Source: Mytilus trossulus (Eukaryota). Taken from it: a DNA stretch of 64,000 nt. How positions within the stretch are numbered: position 1 is the first letter of the stretch; each line of letters begins with the position of its first letter. The translations under genes and the position numbers were made by a program. This document shows, in pieces, positions 1 through 24,300 of this stretch. Where the stretch lies: the NCBI RefSeq assembly GCF_036588685.1, contig NC_086374.1, positions 20,212,001-20,276,000 on the forward strand, in the 5' to 3' direction. The notes below the pieces were generated by a model, which was not told where the DNA came from, did not search any database, and saw only the letters and a list, made by a program, of their open reading frames with translations.

Positions 1-292
1 GGATTTAATTTGTAATAATTTTCCAAATTAGAGTAACAGTTTTCAGTTATATTTATGTAAAATACTTCAAAAGCAGAATGATCCCTGAACTTAATTTTGT
101 TCAATTATATTCAAGGCAGCATATCAAAGATGATGCCTTAGCTGAATAATACTAATCACAAAGAAAAGTAAATACATGTGTTTATTACTATTTTGCTAGA
201 AGAAAAGATGATTCATGTGTTGAATATTATATTGTCAAAAATACAGTTAATTTGTTTGGTAAGTTTGTAATATTTAAACATTTTTGTTATAG

Positions 293-364
293 GATCAACT
301 GGTAAAATTGCAACAACAACGCCAGTTGTAGCTACAAGTCCTTCTCCTGGAATATCAAGTACAA
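293..364 (+). CDS. Exon L2, type A (representative): linker GSTGKIATTTPVVATSPSPGISST
   Basis: tttttgttatag|GATCAACT...AGTACAA|gtaaga; 72 nt, phase 1-1; recurs every unit (e.g. 1821). Confidence 0.88.
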
Positions 365-3300
365 GTAAGAATGAACTTTGATTTTTTTTGTTGCTTGATT
401 TTTTTTATGTTAATGAGACTAAAATATATATTGTTTTGGAAAATTCAATAAATAAAATGCAAATAATTTTTCAAGAATGAAAATGTTAATGCATGACAGT
501 TTTTTGTATAGAGTGAGTACAGTATTTTGTTAAAGGCGGTTATAACAATGACATTTTTGGTTTTTAGAGATATCGACAACTACGCCAATTTGTGAAGAAA
601 CAGATGGAATGGGTTCAATAACAACAATACCATCAACAGAAATTACATCTAATGACAAAAAGGCAGATATTGAAAATCTACGACCTTCGTCTAAAACACC
701 CTTTAAAAGCTCCGAAGGACAAGTGGTTATAGAGTACATGCCTTCAAAGACGAGACCAATTGCCAACGTTGAACTGGTTTCTACTGATAATATCAAGACG
801 TATACAGTACAATTCTTTAATGCAGATGGAACTGTGACAACTCGAAAGGTTTGTATAACTTACTCCAAATCATTAAGTTTTAACTAATCAATTTTAATTG
901 ATTCTTCTTTAAAAAGAATGTGGAATATTAAACAAGACCAATTTTTCCATGTTATGTTTCAAATGTGTATTTTTCTTTCGGTAGGTTAAAGTAGGCGAAA
1001 AGGCTACAAGCATTGGAACCAAGCCTGATGTGAGAAAGGTAACTGTAATTATTACACCTGACGACAAAGAAGATTCTTACAGACCTGTACAGCTCCAACT
1101 AAGCGTCCATGCCTGTTTTGAAGTCAGTAAGTAATGAAAAGCAATAGTTACTTACTTGAAGATATATGTTTTGTATGGTGTTACAGTAGTATAATACAGA
1201 TGTACTGCAGATATCTTACAGGTTCCATTTTGAAATGAAAGTTTGCTCATGTTAATCTGTTTTAATTTTGTCAAAACCTGCTGGTTAATGGTGTTTGATA
1301 TGTCCTTGTAACATAAGAGTTGTTTGCCTTGAATAATGAATTAACCTTTTTTTGTTTAGCTTCTACGCCTATTCCAAGTACAACAGCAGTCCCACAAAAA
1401 GCATCCACAACAGTTGTCACTACAGCCGTGGTTTCACCAACACCTACAGCTACACCCTCTATAATAAGTGAAGCTACTACAACATTGCAAGGTAAAGGAT
1501 TTAATTTGTAATAATTTTCCAAATTAGAGTAACAGTTTTCAGTTATATTTATGTAAAATACTTCAAAAGCAGAATGATCCCTGAACTTAATTTTGTTCAA
1601 TTATATTCAAGGCAGCATATCAAAGATGATGCCTTAGCTGAATAATACTAATCACAAAGAAAAGTAAATACATGTGTTTATTACTATTTTGCTAGAAGAA
1701 AAGATGATTCATGTGTTGAATATTATATTGTCAAAAATACAGATAATACAATTTTTGAATTTGAACAAATTATTAATTTGTTTGGTATGTTTGTATAATA
1801 TTTAAACATTTTTGTTATAGGATCAACTGGTAAAATTGCAACAACAACGCCAGTTGTAGCTACAAGTCCTTCTCCTGGAATATCAAGTACAAGTAAGAAT
1901 GAACTTTGATTTTTTTTGTTGCATGATTTTTTTTATGTTAATGAGACTAAAATATATATTGTTTTGGAAAATTCAATAAATAAAATGCAAATAATTTTTC
2001 AAGAATGAAAATGTAAATGCATGCCAGTTTTTTTATAGAGTGAGTACAGTATTTTGTTAAAGGCGGTTATAACAATGACATTTTTGGTTTTTAGAGATAT
2101 CGACAACTACGCCAATTTGTGAAGAAACAGATGGAATGGGTTCAATAACAACAATACCATCAACAGAAATTACATCTAATGACAAAAAGGCAGATATTGA
2201 AAATCTACGACCTTCGTCTAAGACACCTTTTAAAAGCTCCGAAGGACAAGTGGTTATAGAGTACATGCCTTCAAAGACGAGACCAATTGCCAACGTTGAA
2301 CTGGTTTCTACTGATAATATCAAGACGTATACAGTACAATTCTTTAATGCAGATGGAACTGTGACAACTCGAAAGGTTTGTATAACTTACTCCAAATCAT
2401 TAAGTTTTAACTAATCAATTTTAATTGATTCTTCTTTAAAAAGAATGTGGAATATTAAACAAGACCAATTTTTCCATGTTATGTTTCAAATGTGTATTTT
2501 TCTTTCGGTAGGTTAAAGTAGGCGAAAAGGCTACAAGCAAGCCTGATGTGAGAAAGGTAACTGTTATTATTACACCTGATGACAAAGAAGATTCTTACAG
2601 ACCTGTACAGCTCCAACTAAGCGTCCATGCCTGTTTTGAAGTCAGTAAGTAATGAAAAGCAATAGTTACTTACTTGAAGATATATGTTTTGTATGGTGTT
2701 ACAGTAGTATAATACAGATGTACTGCAGATATCTTACAGGTTCCATTTTGAAATGAAAGTTTGCTCATGTTAATCTGTTTTAATTTTGTCAAAACCTGCT
2801 GGTTAATGGTGTTTGATATGTCCTTGTAACATAAGAGTTGTTTGCCTTGAATAATGAATTAACCTTTTTTTGTTTAGCTTCTACGCCTATTCCAAGTACA
2901 ACAGCAGTCCCACAAAAAGCATCCACAACAGTTGTCACTACAGCCGTGGTTTCACCAACACCTACAGCTACACCCTCTATAATAAGTGAAGCTACTACAA
3001 CATTGCATGGTAAAGGATTTAATTTGTAATAATTTTCCAAATTAGAGTAACAGTTTTCAGTTATATTTATGTAAAATACTTCAAAAGCAGAATGATCCCT
3101 GAACTTAATTTTGTTCAATTATATTCAAGGCAGCATATCAAAGATGATGCCTTAGCTGAATAATACTAATCACAAAGAAAAGTAAATACATCTGTTAAAT
3201 ACTATTTTGCTAGAAGAAAAGATGATTCATGTGTTGAATATTATATTGTCAAAAATACAGTTAATTTGTTTGGTAGGTTTGTAATATTTAAACATTTTTG

Positions 3301-6300
3301 TTATAGGATCAACTGGTAAAATTGCAACAACAACGCCAGTTGTAGCTACAAGTCCTTCTCCTGGAATATCAAGTACAAGTAAGAATGAACTTTGATTTTT
3401 TTTGTTGCTTGATTTTTTTTATGTTAATGAGACTAAAATATATATTGTTTTGGAAAATTCAATAAATAAAATGCAAATAATTTTTCAAGAATGAAAATGT
3501 TAATGCATGCCAGTCTTTTTATAGAGTGAGTACAGTATTTTGTTAAGGGCGGTTATAACAATGACATTTTTGGTTTTTAGAGATATCGACAACTACGCCA
3601 ATTTGTGAAGAAACAGATGGAATGGGTTCAATAACAACAATACCATCAACAGAAATTACATCTAATGACAAAAAGGCAGATATTGAAAATCTACGACCTT
3701 CGTCTAAGACACCTTTTAAAAGCTCCGAAGGACAAGTGGTTATAGAGTACATGCCTTCAAAGACGAGACCAATTGCCAACGTTGAACTGGTTTCTACTGA
3801 TAATATCAAGACGTATACAGTACAATTCTTTAATGCAGATGGAACTGTGACAACTCGAAAGGTTTGTATAACTTACTCCAAATCATTAAGTTTTAACTAA
3901 TCAATTTTAATTGATTCTTCTTTAAAAAGAATGTGGAATATTAAACAAGACCAATTTTTCCATGTTATGTTTCAAATGTGTATTTTTCTTTCGGTAGGTT
4001 AAAGTAGGCGAAAAGGCTACAAGCATTGGAACCAAGCCTGATGTGAGAAAGGTAACTGTAATTATTACACCTGATGACAAAGAAGATTCTTACAGACCTG
4101 TACAGCTCCAACTAAGCGTCCATGCCTGTTTTGAAGTCAGTAAGTAATGAAAAGCAATAGTTACTTACTTGAAGATATATGTTTTGTATGGTGTTACAGT
4201 AGTATAATACAGATGTACTGCAGATATCTTACAGGTTCCATTTTGAAATGAAAGTTTGCTCATGTTAATCTGTTTTAATTTTGTCAAAACCTGCTGGTTA
4301 ATGGTGTTTGATATGTCCTTGTAACATAAGAGTTGTTTGCCTTGAATAATGAATTAACCTTTTTTTGTTTAGCTTCTACGCCTATTCCAAGTACAACAGC
4401 AGTCCCACAAAAAGCATCCACAACAGTTGTCACTACAGCCGTGGTTTCACCAACACCTACAGCTACACCCTCTATAATAAGTGAAGCTACTACAACATTG
4501 CAAGGTAAAGGATTTAATTTGTAATAATTTTCCAAATTAGAGTAACAGTTTTCAGTTATATTTATGTAAAATACTTCAAAAGCAGAATGATCCCTGAACT
4601 TAATTTTGTTCAATTATATTCAAGGCAGCATATCAAAGATGATGCCTTAGCTGAATAATACTAATCACAAAGAAAAGTAAATACATGTGTTAAATACTAT
4701 TTTGCTAGAAGAAAAGATGATTCATGTGTTGAATATTATATTGTCAAAAATACAGATAATACAATTTTTGAATTTGAACAAATTATTAATTTGTTTGGTA
4801 TGTTTGTATAATATTTAAACATTTTTGTTATAGGATCAACTGGTAAAATTGCAACAACAACGCCAGTTGTAGCTACAAGTCCTTCTCCTGGAATATCAAG
4901 TACAAGTAAGAATGAACTTTGATTTTTTTTGTTGCTTGATTTTTTTTATGTTAATGAGACTAAAATATATATTGTTTTGGAAAATTCAATAAATAAAATG
5001 CAAATAATTTTTCAAGAATGAAAATGTTAATGCATGCCAGTTTTTTTATAGAGTGAGTACAGTATTTTGTTAAAGGCGGTTATAACAATGACATTTTTGT
5101 TTTTTAGAGATATCGACAACTACGCCAATTTGTGAAGAAACAGATGGAATGGGTTCAATAACAACAATACCATCAACGGAAATTACATCTAATGACAAAA
5201 AGGCAGATATTGAAAATCTACGACCTTCGTCTAAGACACATTTTAAAAGCTCCGAAGGACAAGTGGTTATAGAGTACATGCCTTCAAAGACGAGACCAAT
5301 TGCTAACGTTGAACTGGTTTCTACTGATAATATCAAGACGTATACAGTACAATTCTTTAATGCAGATGGAACTGTGACAACTCGAAAGGTTTGTATAACT
5401 TACTCCAAATCATTAAGTTTTAACTAATCAATTTTAATTGATTCTTCTTTAAAAAGAATGTGGAATATTAAACAAGACCAATTTTTCCATGTTATGTTTC
5501 AAATGTGTATTTTTCTTTCGGTAGGTTAAAGTAGGCGAAAAGGCTACAAGCATTGGAACCAAGCCTGATGTGAGAAAGGTAACTGTAATTATTACACCTG
5601 ATGACAAAGAAGATTCTTACAGACCTGTACAGCTCCAACTAAGCGTCCATGCCTGTTTTGAAGTCAGTAAGTAATGAAAAGCAATAGTTACTTACTTGAA
5701 GATATATGTTTTGTATGGTGGTACAGTAGTATAATACAGATGTACTGCAGATATCTTACAGGTTCAATTTTGAAATGAAAGTTTGCTCATGTTAATCTGT
5801 TTTAATTTTGTCAAAACCTGCTGGTTAATGGTGTTTGATATGTCCTTGTAACATAAGAGTTGTTTGCCTTGAATAATGAATTAACCTTTTTTTGTTTAGC
5901 TTCTACGCCTATTCCAAGTACAACAGCAGTCCCACAAAAAGCATCCACAACAGTTGTCACTACAGCCGTGGTTTCACCAACACCTACAGCTACACCCTCT
6001 ATAATAAGTGAAGCTACTACAACATTGCAAGGTAAAGGATTTAATTTGTAATAATTTTCCAAATTAGAGTAACAGTTTTCAGTTATATTTATGTTAAATA
6101 CTTCAAAAGCAGAATGATCCCTGAACTTAATTTTGTTCAATTATATTCAAGGCAGCATATCAAAGATGATGCCTTAGCTGAATAATACTAATCACAAAGA
6201 AAAGTAAATACATGTGTTAAATACTATTTTGCTAGAAGAAAAGATGATTCGTGTGTTGAATATTATATTGTCAAAAATACAGATAATACAATTTTTGAAT

Positions 6301-9300
6301 TTGAACAAATTATTAATTTGTTTGGTATGTTTGTATAATATTTAAACATTTTTGTTATAGGATCAACTGGTAAAATTGCAACAACAACGCCAGTTGTAGC
6401 TACAAGTCCTTCTCCTGGAATATCAAGTACAAGTAAGAATGAACTTTGATTTTTTTTGTTGCTTGATTTTTTTTATGTTAATGAGACTAAAATATATATT
6501 GTTTTGGAAAATTCAATAAATAAAATGCAAATAATTTTTTCAAGAATGAAAATGTTAATGCATGCCAGTTTTTTTATAGAGTGAGTACAGTATTTTGTTA
6601 AAGGCGGTTATAACAATGACATTTTTGGTTTTTAGAGATATCGACAACTACGCCAATTTGTGAAGAAACAGATGGAATGGGTTCAATAACAACAATACCA
6701 TCAACAGAAATTACATCTAATGACAAAAAGGCAGATATTGAAAATCTACGACCTTCGTCTAAGACACCTTTTAAAAGCTCCGAAGGACAAGTGGTTATAG
6801 AGTACATGCCTTCAAAGACGAGACCAATTGCCAACGTTGAACTGGTTTCTACTGATAATATCAAGACGTATACAGTACAATTTTTTAATGCAGATGGAAC
6901 TGTGACAACTCGAAAGGTTTGTATAACTTACTCCAAATCATTAAGTTTTAACTAATCAATTTTAATTGATTCTTCTTTAAAAAGAATGTGGAATATTAAA
7001 CAAGACCAATTTTTCCATGTTATGTTTCAAATGTGTATTTTTCTTTCGGTAGGTTAAAGTAGGCGAAAAGGCTACAAGCATTGGAACCAAGCCTGATGTG
7101 AGAAAGGTAACTGTAATTATTACACCTGATGACAAAGAAGATTCTTACAGACCTGTACAGCTCCAACTAAGCGTCCATGCCTGTTTTGAAGTCAGTAAGT
7201 AATGAAAAGCAATAGTTACTTACTTGAAGATATATGTTTTGTATGGTGTTACAGTAGTATAATACAGATGTACTGCAGATATCTTACAGGTTCCATTTTG
7301 AAATGAAAGTTTGCTCATGTTAATCTGTTTTAATTTTGTCAAAACCTGCTGGTTAATGGTGTTTGATATGTCCTTGTAACATAAGAGTTGTTTGCCTTGA
7401 ATAATGAATTAACCTTTTTTTGTTTAGCTTCTACGCCTATTCCAAGTACAACAGCAGTCCCACAAAAAGCATCCACAACAGTTGTCACTACAGCCGTGGT
7501 TTCACAAACACCTACAGCTACACCCTCTATAATAAGTGAAGCTACTACAACATTGCATGGTAAAGGATTTAATTTGTAATAATTTTCCAAATTAGAGTAA
7601 CAGTTTTCAGTTATATTTATGTAAAATACTTCAAAAGCAGAATGATCCCTGAACTTAATTTTGTTCAATTATATTCAAGGCAGCATATCAAAGATGATGC
7701 CTTAGCTGAATAATACTAATCACAAAGAAAAGTAAATACATGTGTTAAATACTATTTTGCTAGAAGAAAAGATGATTCATGTGTTGAATATTATATTGTC
7801 AAAAATACAGTTAATTTGTTTGGTAGGTTTGTAATATTTAAACATTTTTGTTATAGGATCAACTGGTAAAATTGCAACAACAACGCCAGTTGTAGCTACA
7901 AGTCCTTCTCCTGGAATATCAAGTACAAGTAAGAATGAACTTTGATTTTTTTTGTTGCTTGATTTTTTTTATGTTAATGAGACTAAAATATATATTGTTT
8001 TGGAAAATTCAATAAATAAAATGCAAATAATTTTTTCAAGAATGAAAATGTTAATGCATGCCAGTTTTTTTATAGAGTGAGTACAGTATTTTGTTAAAGG
8101 CGGTTATAACAATGACATTTTTGGTTTTTAGAGATATCGACAACTACGCCAATTTGTGAAGAAACAGATGGAATGGGTTCAATAACAACAATACCATCAA
8201 CAGAAATTACATCTAATGACAAAAAGGCAGATATTGAAAATCTACGACCTTCGTCTAAGACACCTTTTAAAAGCTCCGAAGGACAAGTGGTTATAGAGTA
8301 CATGCCTTCAAAGACGAGACCAATTGCCAACGTTGAACTGGTTTCTACTGATAATATCAAGACGTATACAGTACAATTCCTTAATGCAGATGGAACTGTG
8401 ACAACTCGAAAGGTTTGTATAACTTACTCCAAATCATTAAGTTTTAACTAATCAATTTTAATTGATTCTTCTTTAAAAAGAATGTGGAATATTAAACAAG
8501 ACCAATTTTTCCATGTTATGTTTCAAATGTGTATTTTTCTTTCGGTAGGTTAAAGTAGGCGAAAAGGCTACACGCATTGGAACCAAGCCTGATGTGAGAA
8601 AGGTAACTGTAATTATTACACCTGATGACAAAGAAGATTCTTACAGACCTGTACAGCTCCAACTAAGCGTCCATGCCTGTTTTGAAGTCAGTAAGTAATG
8701 AAAAGCAATAGTTACTTACTTGAAGATATATGTTTTGTATGGTGTTACAGTAGTATAATACAGATGTACTGCAGATATCTTACAGGTTCAATTTTGAAAT
8801 GAAAGTTTGCTCATGTTAATCTGTTTTAATTTTGTCAAAACCTGCTGGTTAATGGTGTTTGATATGTCCTTGTAACATAAGAGTTGTTTGCCTTGAATAA
8901 TGAATTAACCTTTTTTTGTTTAGCTTCTACGCCTATTCCAAGTACAACAGCAGTCCCACAAAAAGCATCCACAACAGTTGTCACTACAGCCGTGGTTTCA
9001 CAAACACCTACAGCTACACCCTCTATAATAAGTGAAGCTACTACAACATTGCAAGGTAAAGGATTTAATTTGTAATAATTTTCCAAATTAGAGTAACAGT
9101 TTTCAGTTATATTTATGTAAAATACTTCAAAAGCAGAATGATCCCTGAACTTAATTTTGTTCAATTATATTCAAGGCAGCATATCAAAGATGATGCCTTA
9201 GCTGAATAATACTAATCACAAAGAAAAGTAAATACATGTGTTAAATACTATTTTGCTAGAAGAAAAGATGATTCATGTGTTGAATATTATATTGTCAAAA

Positions 9301-12300
9301 ATACAGATAATACAATTTTTGAATTTGAACAAATTATTAATTTGTTTGGTATGTTTGTATAATATTTAAACATTTTTGTTATAGGATCAACTGGTAAAAT
9401 TGCAACAACAACGCCAGTTGTAGCTACAAGTCCTTCTCCTGGAATATCAAGTACAAGTAAGAATGAACTTTGATTTTTTTTGTTGCTTGATTTTTTTTAT
9501 GTTAATGAGACTAAAATATATATTGTTTTGGAAAATTCAATCAATAAAATGCAAATAATTTTTCAAGAATGAAAATGTTAATGCATGACTGTTTTTTATA
9601 GAGTGAGTACAGTATTTTGTTAAAGGCGGTTATAACAATGACATTTTTGGTTTTTAGAGATATCGACAACTACGCCAATTTGTGAAGAAACAGATGGAAT
9701 GGGTTCAATAACAACAATACCATCAACAGAAATTACATCTAATGACAAAAGGGCAGATATTGAAAATCTACGACCTTCGTCTAAGACACCTTTTAAAAGC
9801 TCCGAAGGACAAGTGGTTATAGAGTACATGTCTTCAAAGACGAGACCAATTGCCAACGTTGAACTGGTTTCTACTGATAATATCAAGACGTATACAGTAC
9901 AATTCTTTAATGCAGATGGAACTGTGACAACTCGAAAGGTTTGTATAACTTACTCCAAATCATTAAGTTTTAACTAATCAATTTTAATTGATTCTTCTTT
10001 AAAAAGAATGTGGAATATTAAACAAGACCAATTTTTCCATGTTATGTTTCAAATGTGTATTTTTCTTTCGGTAGGTTAAAGTAGGCGAAAAGGCTACAAG
10101 CATAGGAACCAAGCCTGATGTGAGAAAGGTAACTGTAATTATTACACCTGATGACAAAGAAGATTCTTACAGACCTGTACAGCTCCAACTAAGCGTTCAT
10201 GCCTGTTTTGAAGTCAGTAAGTAATGAAAAGCAATAGTTACTTACTTGAAGATATATGTTTTGTATGGTGTTACAGTAGTATAATACAGATGTACTGCAG
10301 ATATCTTACAGGTTCCATTTTGAAATGAAAGTTTGCTCATGTTAATCTGTTTTAATTTTGTCAAAACCTGCTGGTTAATGGTGTTTGATATGTCCTTGTA
10401 ACATAAGAGTTGTTTGCCTTGAATAATGAATTAACCTTTTTTTGTTTAGCTTCTACGCCTATTCCAAGTACAACAGCAGTCCCACAAAAAGCATCCACAA
10501 CAGTTGTCACTACAGCCGTGGTTTCACCAACACCTACAGCTACACCCTCTATAATAAGTGAAGCTACTACAACATTGCATGGTAAAGGATTTAATTTGTA
10601 ATAATTTTCCAAATTAGAGTAACAGTTTTCAGTTATATTTATGTAAAATACTTCAAAAGCAGAATGATCCCTGAACTTAATTTTGTTCAATTATATTCAA
10701 GGCAGCATATCAAAGATGATGCCTTAGCTGAATAATACTAATCACAAAGAAAAGTAAATACATGTGTTAAATACTATTTTGCTAGAAGAAAAGATGATTC
10801 ATGTGTTGAATATTATATTGTCAAAAATACAGATAATACAATTTTTGAATTTGAACAAATTATTAATTTGTTTGGTATGTTTGTATAATATTTAAACATT
10901 TTTGTTATAGGATCAACTGGTAAAATTGCAACAACAACGCCAGTTGTAGCTACAAGTCCTTCTCCTGGAATATCAAGTACAAGTAAGAATGAACTTTGAT
11001 TTTTTTTGTTGCATGATTTTTTTTATGTTAATGAGACTAAAATATATATTGTTTTGGAAAATTCAATAAATAAAATGCAAATAATTTTTCAAGAATGAAA
11101 ATGTAAATGCATGCCAGTTTTTTTATAGAGTGAGTACAGTATTTTGTTAAAGGCGGTTATAACAATGACATTTTTGGTTTTTAGAGATATCGACAACTAC
11201 GCCAATTTGTGAAGAAACAGATGGAATGGGTTCAATAACAACAATACCATCAACAGAAATTACATCTAATGACAAAAAGGCAGATATTGAAAATCTACGA
11301 CCTTCGTCTAAGACACCTTTTAAAAGCTCCGAAGGACAAGTGGTTATAGAGTACATGCCTTCAAAGACGAGACCAATTGCCAACGTTGAACTGGTTTCTA
11401 CTGATAATATCAAGACGTATACAGTACAATTCTTTAATGCAGATGGAACTGTGACAACTCGAAAGGTTTGTATAACTTACACCATATCATTAAGTTTTAA
11501 CTAATCAATTTTAATTGATTCTTCTTTAAAAAGAATGTGGAATATTAAACAAGACCAATTTTTCCATGTTATGTTTCAAATGTGTATTTTTCTTTCGGTA
11601 GGTTAAAGTAGGCGAAAAGGCTACAAGCATTGGAACCAAGCCTGATGTGAGAAAGGTAACTGTAATTATTACACCTGATGACAAAGAAGATTCTTACAGA
11701 CCTGTACAGCTCCAACTAAGCGTCCATGCCTGTTTTGAAGTCAGTAAGTAATGAAAAGCAATAGTTACTTACTTGAAGATATATGTTTTGTATGGTGTTA
11801 CAGTAGTATAATACAGATGTACTGCAGATATCTTACAGGTTCAATTTTGAAATGAAAGTTTGCTCATGTTAATCTGTTTTAATTTTGTCAAAACCTGCTG
11901 GTTAATGGTGTTTGATATGTCCTTGTAACATAAGAGTTGTTTGCCTTGAATAATGAATTAACCTTTTTTTGTTTAGCTTCTACGCCTATTCCAAGTACAA
12001 CAGCAGTCCCACAAAAAGCATCCACAACAGTTGTCACTACAGCCGTGGTTTCACCAACACCTACAGCTACACCCTCTATAATAAGTGAAGCTACTACAAC
12101 ATTGCAAGGTAAAGGATTAAATTTGTAATAATTTTCCAAATTAGAGTAACAGTTTTCAGTTATATTTATGTAAAATACTTCAAAAGCAGAATGATCCCTG
12201 AACTTAATTTTGTTCAATTATATTCAAGGCAGCATATCAAAGATGATGCCTTAGCTGAATAATACTAATCACAAAGAAAAGTAAATACATGTGTTAAATA

Positions 12301-15300
12301 CTATTTTGCTAGAAGAAAAGATGATTCGTGTGTTGAATATTATATTGTCAAAAATACAGATAATACAATTTTTGAATTTGAACAAATTATTAATTTGTTT
12401 GGTAGGTTTGTATAATATTTAAACATTTTTGTTATAGGATCAACTGGTAAAATTGCAACAACAACGCCAGTTGTAGCTACAAGTCCTTCTCCTGGAATAT
12501 CAAGTACAAGTAAGAATGAACTTTGATTTTTTTTGTTGCTTGATTTTTTTTATGTTAATGAGACTAAAATATATATTGTTTTGGAAAATTCAATAAATAA
12601 AATGCAAATAATTTTTCAAGAATGAAAATGTTAATGCATGCCAGTTTTTTTATAGAGTGAGTACAGTATTTTGTTAAAGGCGGTTATAACAATGACATTT
12701 TTGGTTTTTAGAGATATCGACAACTACGCCAATTTGTGAAGAAACAGATGGAATGGGTTCAATAACAACAATACCATCAACAGAAATTACATCTAATGAC
12801 AAAAAGGCAGATATTGAAAATCTACGACCTTCGTCTAAGACACCTTTTAAAAGCTCCGAAGGACAAGTGGTTATAGAGTACATGCCTTCAAAGACGAGAC
12901 CAATTGCCAACGTTGAACTGGTTTCTACTGATAATATCAAGACGTATACAGTACAATTCTTTAATGCAGATGGAACTGTGACAACTCGAAAGGTTTGTAT
13001 AACTTACTCCAAATCATTAAGTTTTAACTAATCAATTTTAATTGATTCTTCTTTAAAAAGAATGTGGAATATTAAACAAGACCAATTTTTCCATGTTATG
13101 TTTCAAATGTGTATTTTTCTTTCGGTAGGTTAAAGTAGGCGAAAAGGCTACAAGCATTGGAACCAAGCCTGATGTGAGAAAGGTAACTGTAATTATTACA
13201 CCTGATGACAAAGAAGATTCTTACAGACCTGTACAGCTCCAACTAAGCGTCCATGCCTGTTTTGAAGTCAGTAAGTAATGAAAAGCAATAGTTACTTACT
13301 TGAAGATATATGTTTTGTATGGTGTTACAGTAGTATAATACAGATGTACTGCAGAGATCTTACATGTTCCATTTTGAAATGAAAGTTTGCTCATGTTAAT
13401 CTGTTTTAATTTTGTCAAAACCTGCTGGTTAATGGTGTTTGATATGTCCTTGTAACATAAGAGTTGTTTGCCTTGAATAATGAATTAACCTTTTTTTGTT
13501 TAGCTTCTACGCCTATTCCAAGTACAACAGCAGTCCCACAAAAAGCATCCACAACAGTTGTCACTACAGCCGTGGTTTCACCAACACCTACAGCTACACC
13601 CTCTATAATAAGTGAAGCTACTACAACATTGCAAGGTAAAGGATTTAATTTGTAATAATTTTCCAAATTAGAGTAACAGTTTTCAGTTATATTTATGTAA
13701 AATACTTCAAAAGCAGAATGATCCCTGAACTTAATTTTGTTCAATTATATTCAAGGCAGCATATCAAAGATGATGCCTTAGCTGAATAATACTAATCACA
13801 AAGAAAAGTAAATACATGTGTTAAATACTATTTTGCTAGAAGAAAAGATGATTCATGTGTTGAATATTATATTGTCAAAAATACAGATAATACAATTTTT
13901 GAATTTGAACAAATTATTAATTTGTTTGGTATGTTTGTATAATATTTAAACATTTTTGTTATAGGATCAACTGGTAAAATTGCAACAACAACGCCAGTTG
14001 TAGCTACAAGTCCTTCTCCTGGAATATCAAGTATAAGTAAGAATGAACTTTGATTTTTTTTGTTGATTGATTTTTTTTATGTTAATGAGACTGAAATATA
14101 TATTGTTTTGGAAAATTCAATAAATAAAATGCAAATAATTTTTCAAGAATAAAAATGTTAATGCATGCCAGTTTTTTTTTATAGAGTGAGTACAGTATTT
14201 TGTTAAAGGCGGTTATAACAATGACATTTTTGGTTTTTAGAGATATCGACAACTACGCCAATTTGTGAAGAAACAGATGGAATGGGTTCAATAACAACAA
14301 TACCATCAACAGAAATTACATCTAATGACAAAAAGGCAGATATTGAAAATCTACGACCTTCGTCTAAGACACCTTTTAAAAGCTCCGAAGGACAAGTGGT
14401 TATAGAGTACATGCCTTCAAAGACGAGACCAATTGCCAACGTTGAACTGGTTTCTACTGATAATATCAAGACGTATACAGTACAATTCTTTAATGCAGAT
14501 GGAACTGTGACAGCTCGAAAGGTTTGTATTACTTATTCCAAATCATTAAGTTTTAACTAATCAATTTTAATTGATTCTTCTTTAAAAAGAATGTGGAATA
14601 TTAAACAAGACCAATTTTTCCATGTTATGTTTCAAATGTGTATTTTTCTTTCGGTAGGTTAAAGTAGGCGAAAAGGCTACAAGCATTGGAACCAAGCCTG
14701 ATGTGAGAAAGGTAACTGTAATTATTACACCTGATGACAAAGAAGATTCTTACAGACCTGTACAGCTCCAACTAAGCGTCCATGCCTGTTTTGAAGTCAG
14801 TAAGTAATGAAAAGCAATAATTACTTACTTGAAGATATATGTTTTGTATGGTGTTACAGTAGTATAATACAGATGTACTGCAGAGATCTTACAGGTTCCA
14901 TTTTGAAATGAAAGTTTGCTCATGTTAATCTGTTTTAATTTTGTCAAAACCTGCTGGTTAATGGTGTTTGATATGTCCTTGTAACATAAGAGTTGTTTGC
15001 CTTGAATAATGAATTAACCTTTTTTTGTTTAGCTTCTACGCCTATTCCAAGTACAACAGCAGTCCCACAAAAAGCATCCACAACAGTTGTCACTACAGCC
15101 GTGGTTTCACCAACACCTACAGCTACACCCTCTATAATAAGTGAAGCTACTACAACATTGCAAGGTAAAGGATTTAATTTGTAATAATTTTCCAAATTAG
15201 AGTAACAGTTTTCAGTTATATTTATGTTAAATACTTCAAAAGCAGAATGATCCCTGAACTTAATTTTGTTCAATTATATTCAAGGCAGCATATCAAAGAT

Positions 15301-18300
15301 GATGCCTTAGCTGAATAATACTAATCACAAAGAAAAGTAAATACATGTGTTAAATACTATTTTGCTAGAAGAAAAGATGATTCATGTGTTGAATATTATA
15401 TTGTCAAAAATACAGTTAATTTGTTTGGTAGGTTTGTAATATTTAAACATTTTTGTTATAGGATCAACTGGTAAAATTGCAACAACAACGCCAGTTGTAG
15501 CTACAAGTCCTTCTCCTGGAATATCAAGTACAAGTAAGAATGAACTTTGATTGTTTTTGTTGCTTGATTTTTTTTTATGTTAATGAGACTAAAATATATA
15601 TTGTTTTGGAAAATTCAATAAATAAAATGCAAATAATTTTTCAAGAATGAAAATGTTAATGCATGCCAGTTTTTTTATAGAGTGAGTACAGTATTTTGTT
15701 AAAGGCGGTTATAACAATGACATTTTTGGTTTTTAGAGATATCGACAACTACGCCAATTTGTGAAGAAACAGATGGAATGGGTTCAATAACAACAATACC
15801 ATCAACAGAAATTACATCTAATGACAAAAAGGCAGATATTGAAAATCTACGACCTTCGTCTAAGACACCTTTTAAAAGCTCCGAAGGACAAGTGGTTATA
15901 GAGTACATGCCTTCAAAGACGAGACCAATTGCCAACGTTGAACTGGTTTCTACTGATAATATCAAGACGTATACAGTACAATTCTTTAATGCAGATGGAA
16001 CTGTGACAACTCGAAAGGTTTGTATAACTTACTCCAAATCATTAAGTTTTAACTAATCAATTTTAATTGATTCTTCTTTAAAAAGAATGTGGAATATTAA
16101 ACAAGACCAATTTTTCCATGTTATGTTTCAAATGTGTATTTTTCTTTCGGTAGGTTAAAGTAGGCGAAAAGGCTACAAGCATTGGAACCAAGCCTGATGT
16201 GAGAAAGGTAACTGTAATTATTACACCTGATGACAAAGAAGATTCTTACAGACCTGTACAGCTCCAACTAAGCGTCCATGCCTGTTTTGAAGTCAGTAAG
16301 TAATGAAAAGCAATAGTTACTTACTTGAAGATATATGTTTTGTATGGTGTTACAGTAGTATAATACAGATGTACTGCAGATATCTTACAGGTTCCATTTT
16401 GAAATGAAAGTTTGCTCATGTTAATCTGTTTTAATTTTGTCAAAACCTGCTGGTTAATGGTGTTTGATATGTCCTTGTAACATAAGAGTTGTTTGCCTTG
16501 AATAATGTATTAACCTTTTTTTGTTTAGCTTCTACGCCTATTCCAAGTACAACAGCAGTCCCACAAAAAGCATCCACAACAGTTGTCACTACAGCCGTGG
16601 TTTCACCAACACCTACAGCTACACCCTCTATAATAAGTGAAGCTACTACAACATTGCATGGTAAAGGATTTAATTTGTAATAATTTTCCAAATTAGAGTA
16701 ACAGTTTTCAGTTATATTTATGTAAAATACTTCAAAAGCAGAATGATCCCTGAACTTAATTTTGTTCAATTATATTCAAGGCAGCATATCAAAGATGATG
16801 CCTTAGCTGAATAATACTAATCACAAAGAAAAGTAAATACATGTGTTAAATACTATTTTGCTAGAAGAAAAGATGATTCATGTGTTGAATATTATATTGT
16901 CAAAAATACAGTTAATTTGTTTGGTAGGTTTGTAATATTTAAACATTTTTGTTATAGGATCAACTGGTAAAATTGCAACAACAACGCCAGTTGTAGCTAC
17001 AAGTCCTTCTCCTGGAATATCAAGTACAAGTAAGAATGAACTTTGATTTTTTTTGTTGCTTGATTTTTTTTATGTTAATGAGACTAAAATATATATTGTT
17101 TTGGAAAATTCAATAAATAAAATGCAAATAATTTTTTCAAGAATGAAAATGTTAATGCATGCCAGTTTTTTTATAGAGTGAGTACAGTATTTTGTTAAAG
17201 GCGGTTATAACAATGACATTTTTGGTTTTTAGAGATATCGACAACTACGCCAATTTGTGAAGAAACAGATGGAATGGGTTCAATAACAACAATACCATCA
17301 ACAGAAATTACATCTAATGACAAAAAGGCAGATATTGAAAATCTACGACCTTCGTCTAAGACACCTTTTAAAAGCTCCGAAGGACAAGTGGTTATAGAGT
17401 ACATGCCTTCAAAGACGAGACCAATTGCCAACGTTGAACTGGTTTCTACTGATAATATCAAGACGTATACAGTACAATTCTTTAATGCAGATGGAACTGT
17501 GACAACTCGAAAGGTTTGTATAACTTACTCCAAATCATTAAGTTTTAACTAATCAATTTTAATTGATTCTTCTTTAAAAAGAATGTGGAATATTAAACAA
17601 GACCAATTTTTCCATGTTATGTTTCAAATGTGTATTTTTCTTTCGGTAGGTTAAAGTAGGCGAAAAGGCTACAAGCATTGGAACCAAGCCTGATGTGAGA
17701 AAGGTAACTGTAATTATTACACCTGATGACAAAGAAGATTCTTACAGACCTGTACAGCTCCAACTAAGCGTCCATGCCTGTTTTGAAGTCAGTAAGTAAT
17801 GAAAAGCAATAGTTACTTACTTGAAGATATATGTTTTGTATGGTGTTACAGTAGTATAATACAGATGTACTGCAGATATCTTACAGGTTCCATTTTGAAA
17901 TGAAAGTTTGCTCATGTTAATCTGTTTTAATTTTGTCAAAACCTGCTGGTTAATGGTGTTTGATATGTCCTTGTAACATAAGAGTTGTTTGCCTTGAATA
18001 ATGAACCATAACCTTTTTTTGTTTAGCTTCTACGCCTATTCCAAGTACAACAGCAGTCCCACAAAAAGCATCCACAACAGTTGTCACTACAGCCGTGGTT
18101 TCACCAACACCTACAGCTACACCCTCTATAATAAGTGAAGCTACTACAACATTGCAAGGTAAAGGATTTAATTTGTAATAATTTTCCAAATTAGAGTAAC
18201 AGTTTTCAGTTATATTTATGTAAAATACTTCAAAAGCAGAATGATCCCTGAACTTAATTTTGTTCAATTATATTCAAGGCAGCATATCAAAGATGATGCC

Positions 18301-21300
18301 TTAGCTGAATAATACTAATCACAAAGAAAAGTAAATACATGTGTTAAATTCTATTTTGCTAGAAGAAAAGATGATTCATGTGTTGAATATTATATTGTCA
18401 AAAATACAGATAATACAATTTTTGAATTTGAACAAATTATTAATTTGTTTGGTATGTTTGTATAATATTTAAACATTTTTGTTATAGGATCAACTGGTAA
18501 AATTGCAACAACAACGCCAGTTGTAGCTACAAGTCCTTCTCCTGGAATATCAAGTACAAGTAAGAATGAACTTTGATTTTTTTTGTTGCTTGATTTTTTT
18601 TATGTTAATGAGACTAAAATATATATTGTTTTGGAAAATTCAATCAATAAAATGCAAATAATTTTTCAAGAATGAAAATGTTAATGCATGACTGTTTTTT
18701 ATAGAGTGAGTACAGTATTTTGTTAAAGGCGGTTATAACAATGACATTTTTGGTTTTTAGAGATATCGACAACTACGCCAATTTGTGAAGAAACAGATGG
18801 AATGGGTTCAATAACAACAATACCATCAACAGAAATTACATCTAATGACAAAAAGGCAGATATTGAAAATCTACGACCTTCGTCTAAGACACCTTTTAAA
18901 AGCTCCGAAGGACAAGTGGTTATAGAGTACATGCCTTCAAAGACGAGACCAATTGCCAACGTTGAACTGGTTTCTACTGATAATATCAAGACGTATACAG
19001 TACAATTCTTTAATGCAGATGGAACTGTGACAACTCGAAAGGTTTGTATAACTTACTCCAAATCATTAAGTTTTAACTAATCAATTTTAATTGATTCTTC
19101 TTTAAAAAGAATGTGGAATATTAAACAAGACCAATTTTTCCATGTTATATTTCAAATGTGTATTTTTCTTTCGGTAGGTTAAAGTAGGCGAAAAGGCTAC
19201 AAGCATTGGAACCAAGCCTGATGTGAGAAAGGTAACTGTAATTATTACACCTGATGACAAAGAAGATTCTTACAGACCTGTACAGCTCCAACTAAGCGTC
19301 CATGCCTGTTTTGAAGTCAGTAAGTAATGAAAAGCAATAGTTACTTACTTGAAGATATATGTTTTGTATGGTGTTACAGTAGTATAATACAGATGTACTG
19401 CAGATATCTTACAGGTTCCATTTTGAAATGAAAGTTTGCTCATGTTAATCTGTTTTAATTTTGTCAAAACCTGCTGGTTAATGGTGTTTAATATGTCCTT
19501 GTAACATAAGAGTTGTTTGCCTTGAATAATGAATTAACCTTTTTTTGTTTAGCTTCTACGCCTATTCCAAGTACAACAGCAGTCCCACAAAAAGCATCCA
19601 CAACAGTTGTCACTACAGCCGTGGTTTCACCAACACCTACAGCTACACCCTCTATAATAAGTGAAGCTACTACAACATTGCAAGGTAAAGGATTTAATTT
19701 GTAATAATTTTCCAAATTAGAGTAACAGTTTTCAGTTATATTTATGTAAAATACTACAAAAGCAGAATGATCCCTGAACTTAATTTTGTTCAATTATATT
19801 CAAGGCAGCATATCAAAGATGATGCCTTAGCTGAATAATACTAATCACAAAGAAAAGTAAATACATGTGTTAAATACTATTTTGCTAGAAGAAAAGATGA
19901 TTCATGTGTTGAATATTATATTGTCAAAAATACAGATAATACAATTTTTGAATTTGAACAAATTATTAATTTGTTTGGTATGTTTGTATAATATTTAAAC
20001 ATTTTTGTTATAGGATCAACTAGTAAAATTGCAACAACAACGCCAGTTGTAGCTACAAGTCCTTCTCCTGGAATATCAAGTACAAGTAAGAATGAACTTT
20101 GATTTTTTTTGTTGCTTGATTTTTTTTATGTTAATGAGACTAAAATATATATTGTTTTGGAAAATTCAATCAATAAAATGCAAATAATTTTTCAAGAATG
20201 AAAATGTTAATGCATGACTGTTTTTTATAGAGTGAGTACAGTTTTTTGTTAAAGGCGGTTATAACAATGACATTTTTGGTTTTTAGAGATATCGACAACT
20301 ACGCCAATTTGTGAAGAAACAGATGGAATGGGTTCAATAACAACAATACCATCAACAGAAATTACATCTAATGACAAAAAGGCAGATATTGAAAATCTAC
20401 GACCTTCGTCTAAGACACCTTTTAAAAGCTCCGAAGGACAAGTGGTTATAGAGTACATGCCTTCAAAGACGAGACCAATTGCCAACGTTGAACTGGTTTC
20501 TACTGATAATATCAAGACGTATACAGTACAATTCTTTAATGCAGATGGAACTGTGACAACTCGAAAGGTTTGTATAACTTACTCCAAATCATTAAGTTTT
20601 AACTAATCAATTTTAATTGATTCTTCTTTAAAAAGAATGTGGAATATTAAACAAGACCAATTTTTCCATGTTATGTTTCAAATGTGTATTTTTCTTTCGG
20701 TAGGTTAAAGTAGGCGAAAAGGCTACAAGCATTGGAACCAAGCCTGATGTGAGAAAGGTAACTGTAATTATTACACCTGATGACAAAGAAGATTCTTACA
20801 GACCTGTACAGCTCCAACTAAGCGTCCATGCCTGTTTTGAAGTCAGTAAGTAATGAAAAGCAATAGTTACTTACTTGAAGATATATGTTTTGTATAGTGT
20901 TACAGTTTTATAATACAGATGTACTGCAGAGATCTTAGATGTTCCATTTTGAAATGAAAGTTCGCTCATGTTAATCTGTTTTAATTTTGTCAAAACCTGC
21001 TGGTTAATGGTGTTTGATATGTCCTTGTAACATAAGAGTTGTTTGCCTTGAATAATGAATTAACCTTTTTTTGTTTAGCTTCTACGCCTATTCCAAGTAC
21101 AACAGCAGTCCCACAAAAAGCATCCACAACAGTTGTCACTACAGCCGTGGTTTCACCAACACCTACAGCTACACCCTCTATAATAAGTGAAGCTACTACA
21201 ACATTGCAAGGTAAAGGATTTAATTTGTAATAATTTTCCAAATTAGAGTAACAGTTTTCAGTTATATTTATGTAAAATACTTCAAAAGCAGAATGATCCC

Positions 21301-24300
21301 TGAACTTAATTTTGTTCAATTATATTCAAGGCAGCATATCAAAGATGATGCCTTAGCTGAATAAAACTCATCACAAAGGAAACTAAATACATGTGTTATA
21401 TACTATTTTGCTAGTAGAAAAGATGATTCATGTGTTGAATATTATATTGTCAAAAATACAGATAATACAATTTTTGAATTTAAACAAATTATTAATTTGT
21501 TTGGTATGTTTGTATATTTAAACATTTTGTTATAGGATCAACTGGTAAAATTGCAACAACAACGCCAGTTGTAGCTACAAGTCCTTCTCCTGGAATTTCA
21601 AGTACAAGTAAGACTGAACTTTGATTTTTTTTTTATGTTAATGAGACTAAAATATATATTGTTTTGGAAAATTCAATAAATAAAATGCAAATAATTTTTC
21701 AAGAATGAAAATGTTAATGACTGATTTTTATAGAATAAGTACAGTATTTTGTTAAAGGTGCTTATTACAATGACATTTTTGGTTTTTAGAGATATCGACA
21801 ACTACGCCAATTTGTGAAGAAACAGATGGAATGGGTTCAATAACAACAATACCATCAACAGAAATTTCTTCTAATGACAAAAAGGCAGATATTGAAAATC
21901 TACGACCTTCGTCTAAGACACCTTTTAAAAGCTCCGAAGGACAAGTGGTTATAGAGTACGTGCCTTCAAAGACAAGACCAATTGCCAACGTTGAACTGGT
22001 TTCTACTGATAATATCAAGACGTATACAGTACAATTCTTTAATGCAGATGGAACTGTGACAACTCGAAAGGTTTGTATAACTTACTCCAAATCATTAAGT
22101 TTTAACTAATCAATTTTAATTGATTCTTCTTTAAAAAGAATGTGGAATATTAAACAAGACCATTTTTTTTTCCATGTTATGTTTCAAATGTGTATTTTTC
22201 TTTCGGTAGGTTAAAGTAGGCGAAAAGGCTACAAGCATTGGAACCAAGCCTGATGTGAGAAAGGTAACTGTAATTATTACACCTGATGACAAAGAAGATT
22301 CTTACAGACCTGTACAGCTCCAACTAAGCGTCCATGCCTGTTTTGAAGTCAGTAAGTAATGAAAAGCAATAGTTACTTACTTGAAGATATATGTTTTGTA
22401 TAGTGTTACAGTTTTATAATACAGATGTACTGCAGAGATCTTAGATGTTCCATTTTGAAATGAAAGTTCGCTCATGTTAATCTGTTTTATTTTTGTCAAA
22501 ACCTGCTGGTTAATGGTGTTTGATATGTCCTTGTAACATAAGAGTTGTTTGCCTTGAATAATGAATTAACCTTTTTTTGTTTAGCTTCTACGCCTATTCC
22601 AAGTACAACAGCAGTCCCACAAAAAGCATCCACAACAGTTGTCACTACAGCCGTGGTTTCACCAACACCTACAGCTACACCCTCTATAATAAGTGAAGCT
22701 ACTACAACATTGCAAGGTAAAGGATTTAATTTGTAATAATTTTCCAAATTAGAGTAACAGTTTTCAGTTATATTTATGTAAAATACTTCAAAAGCAGAAT
22801 GATCCCTGAACTTAATTTTGTTCAATTATATTCAAGGCAGCATATCAAAGATGATGCCTTAGCTGAATAAAACTCATCACAAAGGAAACTAAATACATGT
22901 GTTATATACTATTTTGCTAGTAGAAAAGATGATTCATGTGTTGAATATTATATTGTCAAAAATACAGATAATACAATTTTTGAATTTAAACAAATTATTA
23001 ATTTGTTTGGTATGTTTGTATATTTAAACATTTTGTTATAGGATCAACTGGTAAAATTGCAACAACAACGCCAGTTGTAGCTACAAGTCCTTCTCCTGGA
23101 ATTTCAAGTACAAGTAAGACTGAACTTTGATTTTTTTTTTTATGTTAATGAGACTAAAATATATATTGTTTTGGAAAATTCAATAAATAAAATGCAAATA
23201 ATTTTTCAAGAATGAAAATGTTAATGACTGATTTTTATAGAATAAGTACAGTATTTTGTTAAAGGTGCTTATTACAATGACATTTTTGGTTTTTAGAGAT
23301 ATCGACAACTACGCCAATTTGTGAAGAAACAGATGGAATGGGTTCAATAACAACAATACCATCAACAGAAATTTCTTCTAATGACAAAAAGGCAGATATT
23401 GAAAATCTACGACCTTCGTCTAAGACACCTTTTAAAAGCTCCGAAGGACAAGTGGTTATAGAGTACGTGCCTTCAAAGACAAGACCAATTGCCAACGTTG
23501 AACTGGTTTCTACTGATAATATCAAGACGTATACAGTACAATTCTTTAATGCAGATGGAACTGTGACAACTCGAAAGGTTTGTATAACTTACTCCAAATC
23601 ATTAAGTTTTAACTAATCAATTTTAATTGATTCTTCTTTAAAAAGAATGTGGAATATTAAACAAGACCATTTTTTTTTCCATGTTATGTTTCAAATGTGT
23701 ATTTTTCTTTCGGTAGGTTAAAGTAGGCGAAAAGGCTACAAGCATTGGAACCAAGCCTGATGTGAGAAAGGTAACTGTAATTATTACACCTGATGACAAA
23801 GAAGATTCTTACAGACCTGTACAGCTCCAACTAAGCATCCATGCCTGTTTTGAAGTCAGTAAGTAATGAAAAGCAATAGTTACTTACTTGAAGATATATG
23901 TTTTGTATGGTGTTACAGTATTATAATACAGATGTACTGAAGAGATCTTACATGTTCCATTTTGAGATGAAAGTTCGCTCATGTTAATCTGTTTTAATTT
24001 TGTCAAAACCTGCTGGATAATGGTGTTTGATATGTCCTTGTAACATAAGAGTTATTTGCCTTGAATAATGAAGTAACCTTTTTTTGTTTAGCTTCTACGC
24101 CTATTCCAAGTACAACAGCAGTCCCACAAAAAGCATCCACAACAGTTGTCACTACAGCCGTGGTTTCACCAACACCTACAGCTACACCCTCTATAATAAG
24201 TGAAGCTACTACAACATTGCAAGGTAAAGGATTTAATTTATAATAATTTTCCAAATTAGAGTAACAGTTTTCAGTTATATCTATGTAAAATACTACAAAA

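What the first reader, a model, noticed from the sequence alone, without database searches (positions are those of the whole stretch)
568..1126. Repeated domain looks like a degenerate, tryptophan-free F5/8 type C (discoidin-like) domain
The motif order matches FA58C/discoidin domains: C-x-x-x-x-GM (cf. C..PLGM), IPSTEITSN (cf. I.D.QITASS), QVVIEY (cf. WLQVDL), IANVELVST (cf. V.GV.TQG), IKTYTVQFFNADG (cf. V..FKL.YS.DG), KPDVRKVTVIITP (cf. P..ARYVRI.P), LQLSVHAC (cf. LRLELLGC). Only two Cys occur, at the domain ends, as with the terminal disulfide of FA58C. The domain is shorter (130 aa Cys to Cys) and the 209-aa repeat has no Trp, so it may be a distinct subfamily of the galactose-binding-like fold with altered ligand loops. 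The family assignment is by eye.
Basis: partly seen in the sequence, partly recalled or inferred. Interest (0 to 1): 0.7.

Follow-up and report, generated by a model that had tools for sequence, protein, structure and literature searches.

The report
Trimmed discoidin beads on mussel mucin
A mussel gene with the parts of a giant mucus protein carries 48 near-identical spliced copies of a small domain that Pfam misses; the domain is predicted to be a trimmed discoidin fold and likely acts as a sticky bead between sugar-coated stretches, a role vertebrate mucins give to a different domain.

Summary
Exons 568-848 and 985-1126 splice (transcript contigs, 4 of 4 runs laid) into a 130-aa Cys-to-Cys domain. 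It has 40 copies in the window and 48 in the array, each with two Cys and no Trp. Pfam PF00754 misses it. An AlphaFold model of a ~97% identical Mytilus orthologue gives a jelly-roll whose best matches are neuropilin b1, factor V/VIII C domains and discoidin (Foldseek E 3e-9; Z about 11-12). Two domains just downstream do match PF00754 and share the same internal intron. The flanks carry VWD, TIL, LDLa, PTS and cystine-knot exons, so this is likely one SCO-spondin-like gel-forming mucin. Two corrections. The domain is not decaying (dN/dS 0.07-0.10, against 0.58-0.87 in the linkers). Lack of Trp does not define the family, since relatives keep one or two. F5/8 C domains in lophotrochozoan mucins are already published. 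Not found in my searches: this Pfam-invisible, loop-trimmed subfamily, amplified in a mucin cluster with no CysD hit. Function is untested; I favour a non-covalent gel sticker.

The parts
568..848 (+). Exon D1 (phase 1 to phase 0): N-terminal Cys, GM/IP/LRP motifs and first strands of the trimmed discoidin domain
   Evidence: AG/GT ends; joined in transcript contigs
849..984 (+). 136-nt phase-0 intron just after the DG hairpin; same place and phase in both PF00754-matching domains of the gene
985..1126 (+). Exon D2 (phase 0 to phase 1): last strands and C-terminal Cys
293..364 (+). Short PTS linker exon (24 codons)
1360..1491 (+). PTS linker exon (44 codons); the whole ~79-aa linker is 58% Pro/Thr/Ser with 35 Thr+Ser, predicted O-glycosylated
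1..24629 (+). Sub-array A: 16 units in the window plus 8 upstream, about 1.5 kb each, about 99% identical including introns
24830..26092 (+). Transition unit: D1 is A-like (95%), the rest is B-like (about 80-84% to A)
26435..43916 (+). Sub-array B: 11 units of about 1.62 kb
44257..62398 (+). Sub-array C: 12 units of about 1.60 kb
63647..63775 (+). Last linker exon (3' end inferred from gene model P0004); leads to the PF00754-positive domain that starts about 1.1 kb beyond the window (L021:1128-1418 and 1755-1895)

Best explanation
The repeat is a spliced, strongly conserved 130-aa domain, predicted to have a loop-trimmed F5/8 type C (discoidin) jelly-roll fold, set 48 times between PTS linkers in what is likely one giant SCO-spondin-like gel-forming mucin of a Mytilus mussel, where it likely works as a non-covalent sticker in the mucus gel. 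Shown: exons, splicing, copy number, purifying selection, species-specific homogenisation, flanking VWD/TIL/LDLa/cystine-knot exons, and no CysD hit in this cluster. Predicted: the fold, a terminal disulfide, and loss of about 7 residues from the loop-3 spike and about 7 from the F-x-GN-x-D region relative to the canonical neighbour. Inferred mechanism: the mucin polymerises through VWD and cystine-knot ends as other gel-forming mucins do. The ~79-aa linkers become glycosylated brushes, and the bare domains form regularly spaced weak contacts (domain to domain, or domain to mucin glycan) whose number and spacing set mesh size. This is the position and job that CysD has in MUC2/MUC5. I put identity (FA58C-derived, in a mucin) at about 0.9 and the sticker mechanism at about 0.5.
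For: Fold: model pLDDT 73-95 by 10-residue block over most of the domain, from an alignment with no canonical FA58C row and no templates. Foldseek top 39 ranks, as far as shown, are neuropilin, FV and FVIII except one GH92 at rank 37; best E 3.1e-9. Single-domain VIA matches: discoidin I Z 11.7, rmsd 3.1, 123 aligned; NRP1 b1 Z 11.7, rmsd 3.3, 127; FV C2 Z 10.9, rmsd 3.4, 126, model 204-336 on chain 0-159. Homology: the family profile aligns with the gene's own PF00754 domains over 119-124 columns, scores 35-38; against the first domain alone 31; 120 shuffles of the single domains reached at most 18 and 65 unrelated beta-rich windows at most 26 over 29 columns. The same phase-0 intron is in 8 of 8 domain types examined. 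Host: Pfam VWD, TIL and LDLa upstream; PF00754, TIL and cystine knot downstream, all on the same strand; TSP1-like exons by eye. A Lineus mucin (P0025) has the same N-terminal layout and many such domains. Selection: dN/dS 0.103, 0.069, 0.095 for the domain against 0.58, 0.87, 0.73 for the linkers. CysD: 0 of 24 PF13330 hits in the genome lie in this cluster; 17 lie in another locus that also holds the 7 best PF00754 hits. CysD dimers as gel cross-links: PMC3195396 abstract.
Against: No binding or self-association result exists. The fold search does not single out FA58C: APC10/DOC, CBM32, IFT25 and a GH29 fucosidase domain score within about 1 Z unit, and the last ranks first. PF00754 gives no hit on the repeat. 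HMM-to-sequence cross-searches between the divergent and canonical sets were not significant (best E 0.03), and the second canonical domain alone aligned over only 23 columns. The good model is of orthologue P0039, and its last strands are weaker (blocks at 48-64). No transcript spans the gene, so the single-gene model is inferred; public gene models split the region. dN/dS rests on three non-independent pairs. The tissue of expression is unknown.
Confidence: 0.5

Rival explanations
1. The domain is a multivalent lectin-like module that captures food particles or microbes in mucus through foreign glycans.
For: The fold is shared with CBM32, discoidin and F-type lectins. Forty-eight copies would give high avidity. 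Surface constraint is compatible with low dN/dS.
Against: The F-type fucose motif is absent; the only His is residue 128 (motif from PMC5712786). There is no Trp and only 6 Phe/Tyr between the Cys residues for sugar stacking. The loop-3 spike is shortened. Homogenised, near-invariant copies fit a self ligand better than diverse foreign ones (inference).
Confidence: 0.22
2. The domain is a structural spacer with no ligand. It stiffens or helps fold and pack the chain, or resists proteases, and copy number grew by unequal crossing-over with little selection on number.
For: Ligand loops and aromatics are reduced. Family-wide conserved positions are few and look structural. Neighbouring mucin-like genes appear to amplify different, very divergent variants. 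Introns are homogenised with the exons.
Against: dN/dS near 0.1 across the whole domain, with 88% or so identity kept between sub-arrays whose synonymous sites differ by 0.5-0.7, is tight for an inert bead, though core packing in a small beta domain could account for part of it.
Confidence: 0.2
3. The domain belongs to another branch of the galactose-binding-like superfamily (CBM32, DOC, F-type) and resembles FA58C only by fold.
For: Z-scores for those families tie with FA58C; no PF00754 hit.
Against: Terminal Cys pair in register with FA58C; end-to-end profile alignment with the FA58C neighbour; identical intron position and phase; FA58C domains adjacent in the same gene.
Confidence: 0.05
4. 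The domain binds phospholipid membranes or collagen, as factor V/VIII C domains and DDR do.
For: Those proteins are among the top structural matches.
Against: FV/FVIII use exposed hydrophobic spikes and basic patches (recalled). This domain has no Trp, a shortened spike and net charge -1, and many relatives are strongly acidic, down to -21.
Confidence: 0.03

Closest known systems
F5/8 type C / discoidin domain (Pfam PF00754; FV/FVIII C1-C2, neuropilin b1/b2, DDR)
   Same: Predicted jelly-roll, rmsd about 3.1-3.5 A over 123-129 residues; terminal Cys pair in register; same motif order; conserved Arg of the RL motif (35 of 36 rows).
   Different: 130 aa against about 155-160; no Trp in the Mytilus copies; shortened spike; no F-x-GN-x-D motif; below Pfam detection.
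Lophotrochozoan gel-forming mucins with F5_F8 domains, and insect hemolectin (Lang et al. 2016, PMC4948705)
   Same: VWD-C8-TIL N-terminus followed by F5/8 C domains and PTS.
   Different: The published type has Pfam-detectable F5/8 domains with CysD inserted among them; the genome has such a locus elsewhere. This cluster has no CysD hit and dozens of Pfam-invisible copies.
SCO-spondin and limpet pedal-mucus P-vulgata_3 / P-vulgata_6 (PMC7333891)
   Same: VWD/C8/TIL plus LDLa at the front; TSP1 and cystine knot at the back.
   Different: The middle is a PTS-and-discoidin array of more than 10,000 aa. SCO-spondin has one FA58C and many TSP1 repeats (recalled).
CysD domains of MUC2, MUC5AC and MUC5B (PMC3195396, PMC11912381)
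   Same: Small disulfide-closed globular domains interrupting PTS regions, with variable copy number.
   Different: Unrelated fold with five disulfides; 2-9 copies against 48 or more; dimerisation shown for MUC2 CysD, untested here.
Abalone egg-coat VERL repeat array (recalled, not looked up)
   Same: A tandem domain array homogenised by concerted evolution with species-specific fixed differences.
   Different: ZP-N fold in an egg-coat receptor; here a discoidin fold in four-exon cassettes within a mucin.

Membership tests
F5/8 type C (FA58C/discoidin) | Match to Pfam PF00754 | tested here: not met
   No hit on D1, D2, P0038, P0044, P0039 or P0002; the neighbouring domain in P0004 passes at E 8e-10
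F5/8 type C (FA58C/discoidin) | Beta jelly-roll of the galactose-binding-like fold | tested here: met
   Predicted model; Foldseek E 3e-9; Z 10.9-11.7
F5/8 type C (FA58C/discoidin) | Terminal Cys pair forming a disulfide | tested here: inconclusive
   Two Cys in 48 of 48 copies, aligned with both ends of FV C2 and NRP1 b1; distance not measured; the disulfide in FA58C is recalled
F5/8 type C (FA58C/discoidin) | Conserved Trp residues and F-x-GN-x-D motif (recalled signature) | tested here: not met
   0 Trp in 48 copies; first Trp kept in 4 of 36 family rows; GN motif region deleted in the alignment
F5/8 type C (FA58C/discoidin) | Common descent with canonical FA58C domains | tested here: met
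   Full-length profile alignment above controls and shared intron; the sequence signal is modest
F5/8 type C (FA58C/discoidin) | Ligand binding through the spike loops | not testable with these tools
   Needs binding assays
Gel-forming mucin | Three VWD-C8-TIL units at the N-terminus | tested here: met
   Three VWD-matching exons (two over the Pfam cut-off, one at E 0.009) and a TIL exon upstream on the same strand; C8 seen by eye only
Gel-forming mucin | PTS domains | tested here: met
   Linkers 58% P/T/S; large PTS frames downstream
Gel-forming mucin | C-terminal cystine knot | tested here: met
   L027:3655-4071 matches Cys_knot (E 3e-5) and DAN (E 4e-7)
Gel-forming mucin | All parts on one transcript, with a signal peptide | tested here: inconclusive
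   Local junctions confirmed; no read spans the gene; signal-peptide exon not located
CysD-bearing mucin (MUC2/MUC5 type; published lophotrochozoan type) | Mucin2_WxxW (PF13330) domains in the PTS region | tested here: not met
   0 of 24 genome hits lie in this cluster (that search scores best candidates only); a motif scan of the gene span was also empty
F-type lectin | HX24RXDX4[R/K] fucose-binding motif (PMC5712786) | tested here: not met
   Absent; single His at residue 128
Galactose-binding-like superfamily in InterPro (SUPERFAMILY, Gene3D, SMART) | Match to those profile libraries | not testable with these tools
   Libraries not held; they may already label the domain

The most novel reading that the evidence does not exclude
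A lophotrochozoan class of SCO-spondin-like mucins has replaced CysD with a dedicated, loop-trimmed discoidin domain as its homotypic gel cross-linker. Each gene of the cluster amplifies its own variant into arrays of dozens by exon-cassette concerted evolution, giving self-selective meshes of set spacing in a protein of perhaps 20,000 residues.
Probability: 0.25. Interest if true: 0.7.

Novelty: new variant of a known kind. Interest (0 to 1): 0.38.

Why it matters
Much of the sequence in invertebrate mucins is unannotated. This result assigns a fold to a recurring Pfam-dark module found in Mytilus, in a ribbon-worm mucin and in unnamed public sequences, and supplies a motif for building a family model. 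It also shows that such arrays are parts of giant mucin genes that public gene models split and misname. If the domain self-associates, it would be a second, independently recruited solution to cross-linking mucus, testable with a 14-kDa recombinant domain and relevant to filter feeding and to designed hydrogels. If it does not, it remains a tidy annotation of a known domain in a known host.

Tried and rejected
Pfam hits on multi-copy proteins (ChuX_HutX, TRAP-delta, APT, Phage_TTP_12, GtfA_EBD and others) were rejected. They are short or weak, inconsistent with each other and inflated by summing repeats; none reaches E 0.01 on a single domain. Bacterial repeat proteins (P0017, P0023, P0024, P0029, P0032) matched a 20-30 residue hairpin only and were dropped from the family and reused as negative controls. 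The first AlphaFold model (5 rows, pLDDT 49) and its Foldseek search were uninformative. A PDB sequence search with profile A1 found nothing at E 10. Alignment A2 misplaced the D2-only rows and was not used. One Trp-rich Lineus domain type was left out of the 36-row family alignment as a possible intermediate; that alignment grew from a D1 search, so its motif conservation is partly circular. The protein atlas did not hold the sequences. No transcript contig covered the first PF00754-positive domain at 88% likeness, which is not evidence of absence. Three look-ups of earlier scan findings returned nothing. Ten literature searches listed no paper whose title or abstract opening describes this divergent domain or array. 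The library lacks most subscription papers, and I could not view the domain diagrams in Fig. S4 of PMC4948705 or its supplementary file 1.

Full report
Observation. The window is almost entirely a tandem array of a four-exon unit. In the first unit the exons are 293-364, 568-848 (D1), 985-1126 (D2) and 1360-1491, all AG/GT-bounded, 627 nt in all and open in one frame as 209 aa. Each exon has 40 copies in the window, and 8 more units lie upstream. All 192 projected exons have canonical ends and join into 10,027 codons without a stop or a Trp; 48 of 48 domains have exactly two Cys. Contigs from four public runs (two recorded as RNA, two guessed) skip exactly these introns: D1>D2 and D2>linker in 4 of 4, linker>D1 in 3 of 4, and the loop back to the next unit exactly in 2 of 4. 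The feature is real and spliced.

Organism and host. The closest proteins are labelled Mytilus. I fetched 200 kb upstream and 150 kb downstream. On the same strand, 114-126 kb upstream, are exons matching VWD, TIL and LDLa. Downstream come two PF00754-matching domains (one over the cut-off once spliced, E 8e-10; the first exon of the other at E 1e-4), then PTS frames of hundreds to over 1,000 codons, TIL, TSP1-like exons (by eye) and a cystine knot near +128 kb. This is the layout of a SCO-spondin-like gel-forming mucin spanning about 257 kb. One transcript is inferred from strand and splice phase. Transcript contigs show that splicing continues through the second PF00754-like domain in 3 of 4 runs, but none spans the gene. 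Public models split the region into 'mucin-17-like', 'uncharacterized' and a venom-factor-like name. Adding up open frames suggests roughly 20,000 aa (my estimate).

Family. Pfam does not recognise the repeat. Searches found 33 representatives at E 0.001, of which 5 bacterial repeat proteins were spurious. True relatives include a Lineus mucin with VWD, C8, TIL and LDLa hits, 15 Cys-to-Cys stretches picked by a pattern scan and no PF00754 hit at E 0.01, and unnamed proteins P0030 and P0035. The same gene holds 7 copies of a 53-54% identical variant, single copies near -87 kb and +91 kb, and weaker variants. In a 36-row alignment the shared motif is C-x4-GM-x5-IP-x3-I, then [LI]RP, then N-[IV], then AC[FY]. 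Four rows keep a Trp at the position of the first FA58C Trp, where the window has Phe, so absence of Trp is a derived state, not the family's definition.

Fold. A 5-row model failed (pLDDT 49). A 22-row alignment on orthologue P0039, with no canonical FA58C row and no templates, gave an all-beta domain with 10-residue blocks of 73-95 over most of its length and 48-64 at the C-terminal end. Foldseek ranked neuropilin b1b2 (E 3.1e-9) and factor V/VIII chains at the top. VIA-align gave discoidin I Z 11.7 (rmsd 3.1, 123 residues), NRP1 b1 Z 11.7 (3.3, 127) and FV C2 Z 10.9 (3.4, 126), with the model's two Cys falling on the two ends of those domains. APC10/DOC, CBM32, IFT25 and a GH29 domain tie within about 1 Z unit, so structure alone gives the superfamily.

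Descent from FA58C. Three lines narrow it. First, the family profile aligns end to end with the gene's own PF00754 domains: score 35 over 124 columns and 38 over 119, or 31 over 78 against the first domain alone. Shuffles reached at most 18 (n = 120) and unrelated beta-rich windows at most 26 (n = 65). The second domain alone was weak, and HMM-to-sequence searches were not significant. Second, that canonical neighbour hits factor V and neuropilins by sequence. Third, 8 of 8 domain types examined, canonical and divergent, have a phase-0 intron just after the DG hairpin and a phase-1 boundary after the last Cys.

Evolution. The array has three sub-arrays (24, 11 and 12 units plus one transition unit). 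Units are about 99% identical within a sub-array, introns included, and 79-86% identical between them. Between sub-arrays dN/dS is 0.07-0.10 in the domain and 0.58-0.87 in the linkers (three non-independent pairs, Nei-Gojobori), so the domain is conserved, not decaying. Three positions differ between all 23 full-length type-A copies here and all 9 type-A copies in M. galloprovincialis models, and six differ between type C and all 21 M. californianus copies. That is concerted evolution after speciation.

Mechanism. Shown: a constrained globular domain every 209 residues, between ~79-aa linkers with 35 Thr/Ser. Inferred: a beads-on-a-brush mucin. In vertebrate mucins CysD occupies that position and MUC2 CysD forms non-covalent dimers proposed to cross-link the gel (PMC3195396, abstract); humans have 2-9 copies (PMC11912381, passages). 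None of 24 CysD hits in this genome lies in this cluster, while 17 lie in another locus that also holds the 7 strongest PF00754 hits. I therefore favour a sticker role (about 0.5) over a foreign-glycan lectin (0.22; F-type motif absent, few aromatics), an inert spacer (0.2) or lipid/collagen binding (0.03). No binding test was possible.

Prior knowledge. Lang et al. 2016 state that the F5_F8 domain is characteristic of lophotrochozoan mucin-like proteins, with CysD inserted among them, and that some invertebrate mucins are closest to SCO-spondin (PMC4948705; passages, section 15 and a supplement term search; Fig. S4 diagrams and file 1 not seen). SCO-spondin-like fragments occur in limpet pedal mucus (PMC7333891, passages). 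A 2026 ctenophore mucin preprint does not mention discoidin or FA58C in its main text (passages). Ten searches listed nothing on this divergent subfamily, but InterPro superfamily models could not be tested and may already label it.

Verdict. The finding is a correct by-eye assignment of a known domain type in a known kind of host. The new elements are a Pfam-invisible, loop-trimmed subfamily, its extreme and selected amplification, and its presence in a mucin cluster without CysD. New variant of a known kind; interest 0.38.

Noticed in passing
L032-L035, L086 and L093-L095 (G000:C2 about 20.39-20.53 Mb, minus strand): A second mucin-like gene, or genes, on the opposite strand: a PTS frame of over 5,200 codons, one clear copy of the same domain family (L034), and a ~2.48-kb tandem cassette ending in a weaker Cys-terminated variant.
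   Followed up: partly
L098-L102 (G000:C2 about 20.74-20.78 Mb, minus strand): Another mucin-like stretch: a PTS frame open across all of L098, one family copy (L099), and a ~1.1-kb tandem cassette with an acidic Cys-bounded variant; its family assignment is by motif only.
   Followed up: partly
G000:C2:77.02-77.18 Mb (L056-L062): A locus with the 7 strongest PF00754 hits and 17 CysD hits, probably the published F5/8-plus-CysD mucin type.
   Followed up: no
window 2512-2644: The second unit has a 9-nt in-frame deletion in D2 that removes 3 aa; stored protein P0040 shows the same shortened copy.
   Followed up: yes
window 24830-26092: A mosaic unit at the A/B boundary (A-like D1, B-like D2 and linkers), as expected from unequal crossing-over.
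   Followed up: partly
L012:2843 to L014:5103: A ~22-kb intron splits the two exons of the single domain near -87 kb; it contains frames that look like a broken reverse-transcriptase element, judged by eye.
   Followed up: no
L009:8400 to L010:5300: Four Cys-led acidic exons between the LDLa repeats and the array that may be very divergent members of the same fold; profile E-values were not significant.
   Followed up: partly
L021:4380-7350: An intron holding high-copy repeats that attract thousands of transcript contigs.
   Followed up: no
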